DNA of 64,000 nucleotides from Eledone cirrhosa (Eukaryota): NCBI GenBank assembly GCA_964016885.1, contig OZ024754.1, positions 43,028,001 through 43,092,000 on the forward strand, in the 5' to 3' direction. A program made the position numbers and the translations under genes. This document shows, piece by piece, positions 967-62,024 of this stretch (its first letter is position 1; every line of letters starts with the position of its first letter). The notes under the pieces were generated by a model, which saw nothing but the letters and a program-made list of their open reading frames with translations, was not told where the DNA came from and made no database searches.

Positions 967-1202
967 CGTTTCTGAACAGAACAAAGGAGAGGCACAGAAA
1001 CAAAGAAAGGAATCCCCAGTCACTGAAGAGGTCACAGAGTGTGTGACGAAAGAATTATGACTATATATAAACAACTATCTGGTTGTGGAACCAACCAACC
1101 AACCAGAAATTTATAAATTTATTATAAATTTATTATAATAAATTGAAGTGAAAGCAACTGGTGCGTGTGTTTCTTATTGGCAACATGACCCTCCCAAAGT
1201 AT

Positions 1203-1208
<6 letters not shown>
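964..1208 (+). mobile_element. Family 1 HHR-bearing Penelope-like pLTR fragment (about 12-bp inverted tail + sense arm)
   Basis: Near-identical to the right arm of 5651-6176 and ends at the same point (ccaaagtataacaat). Starts with ttcgtttctgaa, the inverted terminus of the tail at 5593. Flanked by (TA)n. Confidence 0.75.
1018..1062 (+). ncRNA. Minimal type I hammerhead ribozyme motif, family 1
   Basis: agtca CTGAAGA g gtcaca-gagtg-tgtgac GAAA gaat TA tgact: stem I agtca/tgact, stem II gtcaca/tgtgac. Confidence 0.7.
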
Positions 1209-1245
<37 letters not shown>

Positions 1246-4689: not shown

Positions 4690-5173
4690 TTATGTCACTG
4701 TTGTAATTATTTATACTAAACTCGTCATTTGGACTGAGTGCTCTTACTCTTGGATATTTCCACTTAACTTTTACTTCAGTATACACACACACACACATAC
4801 ATATATATAATATATATTGGAAAATGTGTGAAAAGAATGACTTCACTTGTTGTTTTAAACAAATTGATTTCATTTTATAATTTTATAATATAATATTATA
4901 AAATTAAATCAAATTGTTTAGAACTACAAGTGAAGTCATTCTTTTCCTTTTTTTCAAACATATATAGAAGCGAAAACCAACCAAACAGTGTGTGTGTTCA
5001 GTTATTATTTCTGACAACAATATGACTCTCCCCAAGTATAACAATATATATATATATATTTAAAAGTTAAACAAGGTTCAATGAATACATCAAAGAATGA
5101 GTTTTACAATAGATTGGAAACACTCAACAGGATCTTAACCATCTACTATGTCAGGGTATGTCATGCATCATCT

Positions 5174-5240
5174 TATTTTATCTGATGAGGACGTACTGTT
5201 GAACTTAACTCAGTACCTCTGAAATATGTATAATAAAATA
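5174..5240 (+). ncRNA. Minimal type I hammerhead motif, family 2
   Basis: tattttat CTGATGA gg..gtactg-loop-cagtac..ct GAAA tatgta TA ataaaata. Confidence 0.7.
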
Positions 5241-5280
5241 TAATTGATCACAAGAATATCTATTTTGTTAATATTTTGAA

Positions 5281-5320
<40 letters not shown>

Positions 5321-5322
<2 letters not shown>

Positions 5323-5590
5323 AAAGTTATATTTAAATTGTTGGGTTACAACTAGTAAATATTTATAACTGATATAAAAGCACTCGACAAGTATTTGGAG
5401 TATATTTACAATATTAAATAAATGGAAACTATATTTATAAAACCATATTTATTTCATTATATATATTTCAGGGATATCATATTAACAATATAATTAAGGC
5501 ATAGCATATTGTTAATATGATATCCCTGAAATATATATAATGAAATAAATATGGTTTTATAAATATAGTTTCCATTTATTTAATATTGTA
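5321..5590. mobile_element. Family 2 fold-back element (palindrome 5408-5590 plus left tail)
   Basis: Arms acaatattaaataaatgg...attaacaata and tattgttaat...ccatttatttaatattgt; apex inside HHR stem II. Tail homologous to 17608-17697. Confidence 0.75.
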
Positions 5591-5592
5591 TA

Positions 5593-6176
5593 TTTCGTTT
5601 CTGAATTTGTTTAGCAAGATTCTTTATCTGAAATCGTGTGTTGAAACCGATATTGTTATACTTTGGGAGGGTCATGTTGCCAATAAGAAACACACGCACC
5701 AGTTGCTTTCACTTCAATTTAATTTAATATATATTTATAAATTTACAAATTTATAAATTTCTGGTTGGTTGGTTGGTTCCACAACCAGATAGTTGTTTAT
5801 ATATATATAGTCATAGTTCTTTCGTCACACACTCTGTGACCTCTTCAGTGACTGGGGATTTCTTTCTTCGTTTCTGTGCCTTTCCTTTCTTCTATCCTAC
5901 GCCATTTTGTTTGTAAACAAAATGGCGTAGGATAGAAGAAAGGAAAGGCACAGAAACGAAGAAAGAAATCCCCAGTCACTGAAGAGGTCACAGAGTGTGT
6001 GACGAAAGAACTATGACTATATATATATAAACAACTATCTGGTTGTGGAACCAACCAACCAACCAGAAATTTATAAATTTGTAAATTTATAAATATATAT
6101 TAAATTAAATTGAAGTGAAAGCAACTGGTGCGTGTGTTTCTTATTGGCAACATGACCCTCCCAAAGTATAACAATA
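5593..6176. mobile_element. Family 1 fold-back element: 526-bp palindrome (5651-6176) plus about 58-bp tail
   Basis: 262-bp arms around a 2-nt spacer at 5913-5914 (gccattttgttt gt aaacaaaatggc). HHRs at 5974-6018 (+) and 5809-5853 (-). Confidence 0.9.
5974..6018 (+). ncRNA. Minimal type I hammerhead ribozyme, family 1
   Basis: agtca CTGAAGA g gtcaca gagtg tgtgac GAAA gaac TA tgact; predicted CUA cleavage. Confidence 0.75.
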
Positions 6177-6323
6177 ATATTGTATATATATATATATAAG
6201 CAAAGGGATATTTAATTTGTTGGTAATTCAACAAATATATATATTTATAACTGATTCGAAGCACTCGACAGATTTTCAGGAATCTCGTTCCTGGATATGT
6301 CAATATTTATAAAACAATCTTTG

Positions 6324-6384
6324 TATTTTATCTGATGAGAGCGTACCAAAGTTTTGGTACCCTTGAAATATATATAATAGAATA
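6324..6384 (+). ncRNA. Minimal type I hammerhead ribozyme, family 2
   Basis: tattttat CTGATGA gagc gtaccaaa gt tttggtac cctt GAAA tatata TA atagaata. Confidence 0.75.
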
Positions 6385-6427
6385 AATATGGTTTTATAAA
6401 GATAGCTTCCATTTATTAATATCATTG

Positions 6428-6461
<34 letters not shown>

Positions 6462-6670
6462 TCCAGAGATTTGATTCTGACTTAGTTTTTTTCTATTTAA
6501 TTGCTAAACTTGTAGATATTGTTCTCTATACAGTAACGGTAAACTCACTTGTAATAATTCTTTACACACATCTCACTGTGTAACACACTTCTCTTTGTGT
6601 AATATATATTTGTATATATATATATATGTATAATATTAATAAATGGAAGCTATCTTTATAAAACCATATT

Positions 6671-6731
6671 TATTCTATTATATATATTTCAAGGGTACCA
6701 AAACTTTGGTACGCTCTCATCAGATAAAATA
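6671..6731 (-). ncRNA. Minimal type I hammerhead ribozyme, family 2 (identical inverted copy of 6324-6384)
   Basis: Reverse complement of 6324-6384. Confidence 0.75.
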
Positions 6732-6799
6732 CAAAATTTGGTTTACAGATAGTGACATATCTACCGACATAAGAACTTGTTGTGAGTTCTATTTGAATA

Positions 6800-8146: not shown

Positions 8147-9166
8147 AACGTAGAGAGAAGACAGACTATGTTCTGGGGACCAAGAACTGTGTATTGTCAT
8201 CTATGAAGGGCCGTAACGTAGAGAGAAGACAGACTATGTTCTGGGGACCAAGAACTGTGTATTGTCATCTATGAAGGGCCGTAACGTAGAGAGAAGACAG
8301 ACTATGTTCTGGGGACCAGGAACTGTGTATTGTCATCTATGAAGGGCCGTAACGTAGAGAGAAGACAGACTATGTTCTGGGGACCAGGAACTGTGTATTG
8401 TCATCTATGAAGGGCCGTAACGTAGAGAGAAGACAGACTATGTTCTGGGGACCAGGAACTGTGTATTGTCATCTATGAAGGGCCGTAACGTAGAGAGAAG
8501 ACAGACTATGTTCTGGGGACCAAGAACTGTGTATTGTCATCTATGAAGGGCCGTAACGTAGAGAGAAGACAGACTATGTTCTGGGGACCAAGAACTGTGT
8601 ATTGTCATCTATGAAGGGCCGTAACGTAGAGAGAAGACAGACTATGTTCTGGGGACCAGGAACTGTGTATTGTCATCTATAAAGGGCCGTAACGTAGAGA
8701 GAAGACAGACTATGTTCTGGGGACCAAGAACTGTGTATTGTCATCTATGAAGGGCCGTAACGTAGAGAGAAGACAGACTATGTTCTGGGGACCAGGAACT
8801 GTGTATTGTCATCTATGAAGGGCCGTAACGTAGAGAGAAGACAGACTATGTTCTGGGGACCAAGAACTGTGTATTGTCATCTATGAAGGGCCGTAACGTA
8901 GAGAGAAGACAGACTATGTTCTGGGGACCAAGAACTGTGTATTGTCACCTATGAAGGGCCGTAACGTAGAGAGAAGACAGACTATGTTCTGGTGACCAAG
9001 AACTGTGTATTGTCATCTATGAAGGGCCGTAACGTAGAGAGAAGACAGACTATGTTCTGGGGACCAAGAACTGTGTATTGTCACCTATGAAGGGCCGTAA
9101 CGTAGAGAGAAGACATACTATGTTCTGGGGACCAGGAACTATGTATTGTCATCTATGAAGGGCCGT
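8147..9166. repeat. 68-bp minisatellite, 15 copies
   Basis: Unit aacgtagagagaagacagactatgttctggggacca(a/g)gaactgtgtattgtcatctatgaagggccgt; 1020 bp = 15 x 68. Confidence 0.95.
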
Positions 9167-10343: not shown

Positions 10344-11002
10344 GCTGGACAGCAGAAGGTCTTCAGAGAAGAAACTCTCAGGAGAGTTGGACAACAGAAG
10401 GTCTTCAGAGAAGAAACTCTTAGGAGAGTTGGACAACAGAAGGTCTTCAGAGAAGAAACTCTTAGGAGAGTTGGACAACAGAAGGTCTTCAGAGAAGAAA
10501 CTCTCAGGAGAGCTGGACAGCAGAAGGTCTTCAGAGAAGAAACTCTCAGGAGAGCTGGACAGTAGAAGGTCTTCAGAGAAGAAACTCTCAGGAGAGCTGG
10601 ACAGTAGAAGGTCTTCAGAGAAGAAACTCTCAGGAGAGCTGGACAGTAGAAGGTCTTCAGAGAAGAAACTCTCAGGAGAGCTGGACAGTAGAAGGTCTTC
10701 AGAGAAGAAACTCTCAGGAGAGCTGGACAGTAGAAGGTCTTCAGAGAAGAAACTCTCAGGAGAGCTGGACAGTAGAAGGTCTTCAGAGAAGAAACTCTCA
10801 GGAGAGCTGGACAGTAGAAGGTCTTCAGAGAAGAAACTCTCAGGAGAGCTGGACAGTAGAAGGTCTTCAGAGAAGAAACTCTCAGGAGAGCTGGACAGTA
10901 GAAGGTCTTCAGAGAAGAAACTCCCAGGAGAGCTGGACAACAGAAGGTCTTCAGAGAAGAAACTCTTATGAGAGCTGGACAGCAGAAGGTCTTCAGAGAA
11001 GA
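10344..11002. repeat. 42-bp minisatellite, about 15.7 copies
   Basis: Unit gctggacagtagaaggtcttcagagaagaaactctcaggaga (LDSRRSSEKKLSGE). Confidence 0.95.
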
Positions 11003-11224
11003 ATCCTCCCTCAAGCAAAAGTGGGTGCGAGGTGGTGGTTCGTCGGAAAATTCATTTAGATAGAAGGGATCCTTGGTAGAGAAAAGCATGGGAGAAACTG
11101 ATTTACACTCTCAGCTGCATCCCTAAGATGAGATGGCGAAAATATTACCTCGGAAAACGGCCTGCGTTACCTGCTGCCTCATCCATTCTGCCTCGGGGAT
11201 CAAACTCCGCACCTTTGTCTAGAC

Positions 11225-14430: not shown

Positions 14431-14599
14431 GGAACAAGATAGGAGGGTGGGAGCATAACGCACCAGAGTACTCAATACTTAGAGTAGTAGGAAAAGAGTC
14501 AGGATCCCGACGGCTGAGCTCCGGCCGTTTCGACATCCGAACTGAGTTCGGATATAGCTGACGAAACGGCCGGAGCTCAGCCGTCGGGGTCCTGACTCT
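14431..14599. mobile_element. Family 3 fold-back element
   Basis: Palindrome 14495-14599 with apex atccgaact-g-agttcggat; tail on the left. Confidence 0.8.
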
Positions 14600-17194: not shown

Positions 17195-17256
<62 letters not shown>

Positions 17257-17257
<1 letters not shown>

Positions 17258-17697
17258 ACGATATTAAACAAATGGAAACTATATTTATAAAACCATATTT
17301 ATTTCGTTATATATATTTCTGGGATATCATATTAAAAATATGGTATGCCTTCCTCAGACAAAATACAATACATAAGCTGCTTTATAAATAATTAGTGACA
17401 TACCTTATAATAATGCAACTTCCATTTAAAAAGTTGATTTGGAAGTTGCATTATTATAAGGTATGTCACTAATTATTTATAAAACAGCTTATGTATTGTA
17501 TTTTGTCTGAGGAAGGCATACCATATTTTTAATATGATATCCCAGAAATATATATAACGAAATAAATATGGTTTTATAAATATAGTTTCCATTTGTTTAA
17601 TATCGTAAACCTACTCCAGAAACTGTTGAGTGCTTTTATATCAGTTATAAAATATTTACTCGTTGTAACCCAACAATCTTAAATAAAACTTTTGCAT
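17257..17697. mobile_element. Family 2 fold-back element: palindrome 17257-17607 plus 90-bp tail
   Basis: 168-bp arms, 15-nt spacer, one mismatch seen. HHRs at 17499-17564 (+) and 17300-17365 (-). Confidence 0.9.
17499..17564 (+). ncRNA. Minimal hammerhead ribozyme, family 2 (covariant stem I)
   Basis: tattttgt CTGAGGA ... GAAA tatata TA acgaaata. Confidence 0.7.
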
Positions 17698-17718: not shown

Positions 17719-18662
<944 letters not shown>

Positions 18663-42839: not shown

Positions 42840-43057
42840 ATAACGAAGGAAATGTGGTAAGGAACCAGGTGGACCATAACGCACCAAAGTACTCAATACT
42901 TAGGATAGTAGAGTGGGTAATAGGAACGAGTTGGACCCCGACGGCTGAGCTCAAGCCGTTTCGACGGCTAATTCTGGACTAAATGAAAATTTTCATTTAG
43001 TCCAGAATTAGCCGTCGAAACGGCTTGAGCTCAGCCGTCGGGGTCCAACTCGTTCCT
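42840..43057. mobile_element. Family 3 fold-back element: spacerless palindrome 42922-43057 plus left tail
   Basis: Apex gaaaa/ttttc at 42989/42990. Confidence 0.85.
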
Positions 43058-50779: not shown

Positions 50780-50787
<8 letters not shown>

Positions 50788-51203
50788 AGATCAAAAGATG
50801 GTTAAAGGAGTTCAATATATTTTATTATGCGCATTTCAAAAACAAACATCATCAAACAATAATATTTGTGTTTTCATCAGATAAAACAGGAGAACATGAT
50901 ATGAAGGCTAAAAAAACACTTGTTGATAGTGCAGTTTTAAATCAACATATATGATTTAAAACTGCACTATCAACAAGTGTTTTTTTTAGCCTTCATATCA
51001 TGTTCTCCTGTTTTATCTGATGAAAACACAAATATTATTGTTTGATGATGTTTGTTTTTGAAATGCGCATAATAAAATATATTGAACTCCTTTAACCATC
51101 TTTTGATCTTATATTATGCATACTCCAGTCCCACAAACTGTAGAGTGCTTCTTATCCGATATCTGCATTGCTTTATTGTACTACAATAAAACTCACCTCC
51201 TAC
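50780..51203. mobile_element. Family 2-related fold-back element: palindrome 50780-51117 plus right tail
   Basis: About 165-bp arms, 7-nt spacer (50945-50951); HHRs on both strands. Confidence 0.9.
51009..51079 (+). ncRNA. Minimal hammerhead ribozyme with TGCGCA stem III
   Basis: tgttttat CTGATGA aaac acaaatattat..atgatgtttgt tttt GAAA tgcgca TA ataaaata. Confidence 0.75.

Positions 51204-61531: not shown

Positions 61532-62024
<493 letters not shown>

What the first reader, a model, noticed from the sequence alone, without database searches (positions are those of the whole stretch)
5593..6176. Perfect 526-bp palindrome carrying divergent ribozymes on both strands
The arms are 262 bp with a 2-nt spacer and no mismatch that I could see. 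Such palindromes are normally unstable, implying a recent insertion. Read-through from either side would give long dsRNA that masks the HHR, a plausible substrate for ADAR editing (extensive in coleoids) or Dicer.
Basis: partly seen in the sequence, partly recalled or inferred. Interest (0 to 1): 0.7.

Follow-up and report, generated by a model that had tools for sequence, protein, structure and literature searches.

The report
Mirror-image stub of Penelope retroelement
The perfect 526-base palindrome is real, but it is an ordinary footprint of a very abundant Penelope-like jumping gene: two copies of its ribozyme-bearing end joined back to back, likely in one recent insertion, a layout found at many other places in this genome and already described in other animals.

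Summary
Observation confirmed. Arms 5651-5912 and 5915-6176 are 262/262 complementary around a 2-nt spacer, and each carries a minimal type I hammerhead motif. The arm is the 3' end (pLTR) of a Penelope-like retrotransposon whose other copies encode RT, a Cys linker and a GIY-YIG nuclease. Its hammerhead 31-mer has 8,734 exact matches in the genome. The extra 5590-5650 is the element's one-sided tail, and a 13-bp direct repeat flanks the whole unit. At least 183 loci have a palindrome centre at this same position, against 1 at a control position 50 nt downstream. The centre likely marks the 5' end of a short pLTR transcript. Arms within a locus are closer (0.8%) than arms between loci (2.7%), so both usually come from one template. 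Nothing supports a special dsRNA, ADAR or Dicer role; expression and raw reads were not examined. Inverted pLTR plus tail, and opposite-strand hammerhead pairs, are published. The scan's notes list the same structure on other genomes (unchecked). Ordinary; low interest.

The parts
5581..5593 (.). Left copy of a 13-bp direct repeat (TAATATTGTATAT), the likely target-site duplication; its last 4 nt overlap the end of the tail
   Evidence: occurs exactly twice in the 64-kb window, at the two ends of the insertion
5590..5650 (-). One-sided 'tail' (about 60 nt): element sequence that follows the pLTR in tandem full-length copies
   Evidence: matches other copies at up to 100% and runs on into the next unit in L031; present on exactly one side in 36 of 36 other paired loci
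5651..5914 (-). Left arm: 5'-truncated pLTR copy. The 2-nt 'spacer' GT (5913-5914) is the two further upstream bases of this copy
   Evidence: the upstream sequence of same-subfamily copies L022 and L041 explains the spacer as templated
5809..5853 (-). Minimal type I hammerhead motif, mirror copy
   Evidence: core start at -5848
5915..6176 (+). Right arm: 5'-truncated pLTR copy ending at the short 3' end, without tail
5915..5930 (+). Hot spot of 5' ends, next to the motif AAAATGGCG (YY1/initiator-like, motif recalled); inferred start of the pLTR transcript
   Evidence: 183 loci against 1 at a control centre; 18 of 99 sampled copies begin within a 21-nt window here
5974..6018 (+). Minimal type I hammerhead motif; predicted cut after 6013
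   Evidence: stem II probability about 1.0, stem I about 0.05 as a monomer
6175..6187 (.). Right copy of the 13-bp direct repeat

Best explanation
This is a stub of an endonuclease-bearing Penelope-like retrotransposon: two 5'-truncated copies of its hammerhead-carrying end (pLTR) joined head to head, likely in a single recent insertion into TA-rich DNA. Shown: the arm is the 3' end of an element with an RT and GIY-YIG ORF; one arm has the tail; a 13-bp repeat flanks the unit; the junction is unique in the genome; both arms stop at a family-wide hot spot. Inferred: the element's protein made a staggered cut in the TA-rich target. Copying started at two sites (the pLTR end and about 60 nt further on, giving the short and the tailed end). 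Both copies ran to the 5' end of a short RNA that starts near AAAATGGCG, and their ends were joined. Whether the second arm was primed from the other target end on the same RNA, or made by fold-back of the first copy, is not resolved. The two hammerheads are passengers. A read-through RNA would carry one motif plus its complement and fold into a hairpin.
For: Identity: the arm follows the stop codon of a 731-aa ORF in L031. [quoted passage not shown] It has 244 homologues, the best an Octopus vulgaris protein at 68%. L031 has head-to-tail units 4,083 bp apart plus an inverted partial copy. Abundance: 8,734 exact matches to the hammerhead 31-mer, 0 for the reversed control. Among the first 100 listed matches, neighbours within 5 kb were 16 divergent pairs, 2 tandem and 0 convergent. 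A tail lies on exactly one side in 36 of 36 other paired loci. 183 loci have their centre at this site against 1 at a control site; the window's own junction occurs once. Mean arm-arm divergence is 0.8% against 2.7% to other loci over 42 pairs. Literature: inverted 5'-truncated copy and one-sided tail (PMC8557442 passages); inverted pLTR, tail and 8-10 bp TSD (PMC3846280 passages); hammerhead pairs 100-700 bp apart on opposite strands (PMC4209133 parts 1-2); both strands cut and extended, with two RT start sites bounding the tail (PMC11167929 parts 1-2).
Against: No raw reads or empty-site allele were examined, so the single-event and real-DNA claims are indirect. The RT Pfam match is below cut-off and Rfam found no hammerhead. 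The tail is about 60 nt, not the published 30-40. Most sibling TSDs lie in (TA)n and cannot be read unambiguously. The hot spot abuts a (CA)n tract, so RT stalling could explain it without a transcription start. Two centre sequences recur 8 times each among the first 50 loci listed, so some palindromes may have been copied as units.
Confidence: 0.92

Rival explanations
1. Same element, but the mirror arm arose by fold-back self-priming (of the first cDNA or of an antisense template), not by priming at both target ends. This is a variant of the mechanism inside the best explanation.
For: Arms within a locus are nearly identical (19 of 42 pairs identical, 34 of 42 within 2 differences). Symmetric centres at the hot spot (183) greatly outnumber hot spot-by-other junctions (7, 1 and 6). 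Arkhipova et al. 2013 argue for self-priming from palindromes at inverted junctions (passage).
Against: Many loci have very unequal arms with unpaired element sequence between them. A symmetric centre at a control site is almost absent (1), although 7 of 99 copies begin in the 47 nt around that site. In vitro, a PLE protein cuts and extends both strands from two start sites that bound the tail.
Confidence: 0.35
2. An assembly artefact from fold-back chimeric reads.
For: Zero mismatches between the arms and a very short spacer are what a fold-back read gives. No reads were examined.
Against: A fold-back would mirror the flank too. Here the mirror stops exactly at the element's 3' end, one side carries the tail and the other does not, a 13-bp direct repeat flanks the unit, and the centre sits at a family-wide hot spot shared by 183 loci. 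Of 42 paired loci compared, 23 have arms that differ.
Confidence: 0.03
3. A selected host device: a bidirectional ribozyme or dsRNA switch feeding ADAR or Dicer.
For: A read-through RNA is predicted to form a near-perfect hairpin that masks the hammerhead.
Against: It is one of at least 183 near-identical siblings from a young subfamily, in a cluster of similar stubs. No Penelope ORF lies in the window and no host exon was recognised. The hammerhead is the minimal type, reported inactive as a monomer, and the two motifs lie on opposite strands, so they cannot dimerise in cis.
Confidence: 0.03
4. A MITE-like foldback DNA transposon, or a palindromic retrozyme, that moves as a fixed 526-bp unit.
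For: Long terminal inverted repeats, no ORF, many copies; a few centre sequences recur.
Against: 20 different centre sequences among the first 50 loci listed (my count); this junction is unique; arm lengths vary widely and run on into the RT/EN ORF; the tail is one-sided; no tandem array of short monomers.
Confidence: 0.03

Closest known systems
Insertions of C-terminal EN+ Penelope-like elements with inverted pLTR and tail (Penelope/Poseidon, Neptune, Nematis; e.g. Pen2a_Av in PMC3846280; overview in PMC8557442)
   Same: Head-to-head inverted 5'-truncated copy, one-sided tail, short TSD, AT-rich or (TA)n target, tandem full-length units, RT followed by GIY-YIG, hammerhead in the pLTR.
   Different: Here both arms are cut down to the pLTR, so no ORF is left. 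The tail is about 60 nt rather than 30-40. The centre position is strongly non-random. The parent has the CX4CX2C linker, which points to Neptune or Nematis; the clade was not resolved by a tree.
Minimal hammerheads of metazoan PLEs, including opposite-strand pairs 100-700 bp apart in Schistosoma mansoni (Cervera and de la Pena 2014, PMC4209133)
   Same: Short helix I (5 bp), longer helix II, an unpaired base before helix II, a vestigial helix III, paired on opposite strands at short range.
   Different: A different host and family. Loop 3 here (GAAC) is not a perfect palindrome, and activity was not tested.
Metazoan non-LTR retrozymes (PMC7229834; bioRxiv 10.64898/2026.07.22.740005)
   Same: Short, non-coding, hammerhead-bearing, about 300 nt, and PLE-related.
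   Different: Retrozymes are head-to-tail tandem arrays with canonical hammerheads that yield circular RNA. This unit is head to head, has a minimal hammerhead and is identical to the end of an autonomous PLE.

Membership tests
EN+ Penelope-like element (C-terminal GIY-YIG) | Family ORF with RT followed by a C-terminal GIY-YIG endonuclease | tested here: met
   Shown in sibling copy L031, not in the stub itself: YVDD motif and weak RVT_1, GIY-YIG above Pfam cut-off, full-length homology to P0094 at E 1e-138
EN+ Penelope-like element (C-terminal GIY-YIG) | [quoted passage not shown] | tested here: met
   The translation has two Cys between the VY and YIG motifs and two His downstream; judged by eye against the description
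EN+ Penelope-like element (C-terminal GIY-YIG) | pLTR formed by tandem or partial-tandem copies, often with an inverted 5'-truncated copy | tested here: met
   L031 tandem with a 4,083-bp period plus an inverted partial copy; 16 divergent and 0 convergent pairs
EN+ Penelope-like element (C-terminal GIY-YIG) | Optional tail at one end | tested here: met
   Window plus 36 of 36 paired loci; about 60 nt, longer than the published 30-40
EN+ Penelope-like element (C-terminal GIY-YIG) | Short variable target-site duplication in AT-rich DNA | tested here: met
   13-bp direct repeat at this locus; not confirmed against an empty site
EN+ Penelope-like element (C-terminal GIY-YIG) | RT groups with PLE/telomerase RTs in a tree | not tested
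   No named PLE reference set was at hand; a PDB profile search gave only distant bacterial RTs
Neptune/Nematis clades | CX2-5CxxC linker upstream of the GIY-YIG domain | tested here: met
   CX4CX2C in the L031 translation; definition. This does not separate Neptune from Nematis
Minimal type I hammerhead ribozyme | Conserved core CUGANGA...GAAA...UH with helices I and II | tested here: met
Minimal type I hammerhead ribozyme | Self-cleavage, as a dimer or with protein help | not testable with these tools
   Indirect test negative: junctions at the predicted cut site are not enriched (7 against 6 and 1 at controls)
Non-LTR retrozyme | Head-to-tail tandem monomers of 150-450 bp with canonical type I hammerheads | tested here: not met
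   Arrangement is head to head; the only tandem pairs seen are 2.5 and 4.1 kb apart; definition
MITE / foldback DNA transposon | Copies move as a fixed unit with constant internal structure and symmetric ends | tested here: not met
   Unique junction, 20 centre types in 50 loci, asymmetric tail

The most novel reading that the evidence does not exclude
The palindrome centres are a genome-wide record of the 5' end of a short (about 260-320 nt) RNA made from the pLTR's own promoter, starting just upstream of a YY1/initiator-like motif. The element's RT copies this uncleaved RNA twice at one target, so each stub is a back-to-back promoter cassette that can itself make template RNA on both strands: a self-renewing, SINE-like, non-coding branch of the Penelope cycle in which the hammerhead does not define the template's end.
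Probability: 0.3. Interest if true: 0.45.

Novelty: new member of a known kind. Interest (0 to 1): 0.13.

Why it matters
As a single locus it matters little. As a class, these stubs explain why this genome is full of perfect palindromes, warn against discarding such palindromes as fold-back artefacts, and give a large natural data set on the unsolved question of how Penelope-like elements build their inverted ends. The centre hot spot (183 against 1) and the lack of enrichment at the hammerhead cut site make two testable predictions: the template RNA starts near AAAATGGCG, and it is not ribozyme-processed. Where such stubs lie in transcribed regions they would add to the dsRNA available to ADAR, but that is untested.

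Tried and rejected
Rfam at gathering threshold: 0 hits in the window. A DNA search of the own genome with the whole arm returned nothing because common words are skipped; it was replaced by exact-pattern counts. Hammerhead cleavage as the source of arm 5' ends: not supported (7 junctions against 6 and 1 at control positions). Arms from two different template RNAs as the rule: not supported. PDB profile search: only 2 distant bacterial RT matches. tblastn of the family ORF against the window: no hit, so no coding part of this family lies nearby. Paper searches for YY1 with PLE-like terms (0 papers) and for twin priming in PLEs (4 papers, none with both 'pLTR' and 'twin priming') found no statement of the centre hot spot. 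This library lacks most subscription papers, and I read no supplements. MITE and retrozyme readings were rejected (see rivals).

Full report
Observation. The arms 5651-5912 and 5915-6176 are 262 nt each, 100% complementary, with GT between them. A motif scan finds a minimal type I hammerhead on each strand, with cores at +5979 and -5848. On the plus strand, stem I is 5974-5978 with 6014-6018, the core is CUGAAGA, one G is unpaired, stem II is 5987-5992 with 5998-6003, then GAAA, a 2-bp helix III with an AA loop, and a predicted cut after 6013. Rfam has no hit at gathering score. In an RNA starting at the centre, stem II is predicted with probability about 1.0 and stem I only about 0.05, in line with the minimal, dimer-dependent PLE motifs of Cervera and de la Pena (PMC4209133, parts 1-2 of 4 read).

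What it is. A 31-mer spanning the hammerhead has 4,345 + 4,389 = 8,734 exact matches in the 3.0-Gb genome and the reversed control has 0. I fetched sequence around 99 of the first 100 listed matches. In many, the arm follows an ORF. In L031 it lies downstream of the stop of a 731-aa frame, and units repeat head to tail 4,083 bp apart with an inverted partial copy in front. [quoted passage not shown] It has 244 homologues at E <= 1e-5, the best an Octopus vulgaris protein at 68%, so the host is probably an octopod (inference). RT, then a Cys linker, then GIY-YIG defines the Neptune and Nematis PLE clades (PMC8557442 passages). I did not build a tree to choose between them.

Anatomy of this insertion. 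The stretch 5590-5650 is not palindromic but is element sequence: it follows the pLTR in tandem copies. It is the tail. In 36 of 36 other distinct loci where both arm ends were found within 5 kb, the tail is on exactly one side (1 of the 15 centre-selected loci gave no pair, and duplicate views of a locus are counted once). It is about 60 nt, longer than the published 30-40. The 13-mer TAATATTGTATAT occurs twice in the window, at 5581-5593 and 6175-6187, bracketing tail plus palindrome. This is the likely target-site duplication, with a few bases shared with the element ends. The 2-nt spacer is the next two upstream bases of the same subfamily (L022, L041), so the junction is a clean join of two copies that start 64 and 62 nt upstream of the hammerhead 31-mer. 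The junction 24-mer occurs once in the genome. No part of the family ORF lies in the window.

How common. Among the first 100 matches, neighbours within 5 kb were 16 divergent pairs, 2 tandem pairs and 0 convergent pairs. A pattern for head-to-head joins at this same position (gap up to 11 nt) finds 183 loci; I count 20 different centre sequences among the first 50 listed, two of them 8 times each. The same pattern type at a conserved site 50 nt downstream finds 1 locus. In the sample of 99 core-bearing copies, 18 (14 loci) begin in the 21 nt from -69 to -49, against 6 in the 63 nt upstream and 7 in the 47 nt downstream; 44 have the tailed end, 53 the short end, 2 were not called (end points further upstream than about -290 are unreliable in that alignment). 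Joins between the hot spot and the predicted hammerhead cut number 7, against 6 and 1 at two control sites, so there is no sign that cleavage creates arm ends. This agrees with the in vitro result that hammerhead cleavage is not needed for insertion (PMC11167929, parts 1-2 of 4 read). The hot spot lies just before AAAATGGCG, which I recall as a YY1-type motif. YY1 positions the start of LINE-1 transcription (abstract start of PMC11602158 in the listing). The sister-family palindrome at 17772-18451 has its centre a few tens of bases upstream of the same motif. A transcription start is therefore my reading, but RT stalling at the adjacent (CA)n tract is not excluded.

Why it is perfect. Over 177 of 262 columns (simple-repeat zones masked), 19 of 42 arm pairs are identical and 34 of 42 differ at 2 or fewer sites. 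Mean arm-arm divergence is 0.8%, against a mean median of 2.7% to arms of other loci (the 42 include the window; five loci were dropped as presumed duplicates, one of which, L018, was in fact a separate copy, and a few arms are seen twice). Both arms thus usually come from one template, or are homogenised later. The window's arm has no difference from about 17% of the other arms, so it belongs to a young subfamily. Sibling palindromes with equally short spacers but diverged arms (L050, L054, L055, L058) show that such structures persist here.

Mechanism. Shown: identity, tail, flanking repeat, unique junction, centre hot spot, single template. Inferred: staggered cutting of TA-rich DNA by the element's GIY-YIG domain; reverse transcription from two start sites that bound the tail, as shown in vitro for the anole PLE, which cuts and extends both strands; run-off at the 5' end of a short pLTR RNA; and joining of the two copies. 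The alternative, self-priming fold-back (PMC3846280 passages), also gives identical arms; I put it at about one in three. The two hammerheads are a by-product. A read-through RNA over 5781-6046 is predicted to pair 131 of 133 possible positions, and forcing the hammerhead stems costs 75.5 kcal/mol.

Artefact. No reads were examined, so this rests on anatomy. A fold-back read would mirror the flank, and would not stop at the element's 3' end, add a tail on one side, create a direct repeat, or choose a centre shared with 183 loci. I put an artefact at about 3%.

Prior knowledge. An inverted 5'-truncated copy with a one-sided tail is the described PLE layout, with TSDs of 8-10 bp in rotifer examples. 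Pairs of minimal hammerheads 100-700 bp apart on opposite strands were reported in Schistosoma. Penelope-like elements are annotated in O. vulgaris, in a paper whose main text does not mention hammerheads (PMC13282606 passages). Retrozymes differ in being tandem with canonical motifs (PMC7229834 passages; bioRxiv 10.64898/2026.07.22.740005, part 1 of 5). My searches found no paper on the centre hot spot; supplements were not read. The scan's own notes list eight similar findings on other genomes. They are unchecked and were consulted after I had formed the PLE reading. One of them suggested testing centres against the RNA start and the ribozyme cut; here the first held and the second did not.

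Verdict. Real, recent and ordinary: a new member of a known kind, interest 0.13.

Noticed in passing
window 4810-6761: A run of at least five PLE-like stubs within 2 kb, each starting at the TA-rich end of the last: 4810-5060 (sister family), a hammerhead at +5182, palindrome 5407-5590 (85-bp perfect arms) with a tail-like stretch on its left, this element, and 6294-6761 with hammerheads at +6332 and -6723.
   Followed up: partly
window 978-1210: A solo, 5'-truncated copy of the same family (about 92% identical, hammerhead at +1023). Ten bases matching the far end of the tail lie inverted directly upstream, so it looks like a paired insertion whose second arm is only about 10 nt long.
   Followed up: partly
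window 17772-18451: A 680-bp palindrome (97%) of a sister family with similar 3' end and tail; its centre lies a few tens of bases upstream of the same AAAATGGCG motif.
   Followed up: partly
window 17251-17613, 50780-51117: Further palindromes with one-sided tail-like flanks from a second group of hammerhead-bearing repeats; 50780-51117 has motifs at -50880 and +51017.
   Followed up: no
window 61535-61984, 42922-43057, 14495-14599: Palindromes of a third repeat family, one with 220-bp perfect arms (partly TA repeat) and a 10-nt spacer, one with 68-bp arms and no spacer; parent element not identified.
   Followed up: no
L031 2939-4492 (-), L032 1006-2208 (+): The N-terminal part of the family ORF has a long Asn/Thr/His-rich low-complexity segment, recalling the N-rich inserts described in rotifer Penelope ORFs.
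   Followed up: no
window 8147-9166, 10344-11003: Highly homogeneous minisatellites: 68 bp x 15 (98%) and 42 bp x 15.7 (97%).
   Followed up: no
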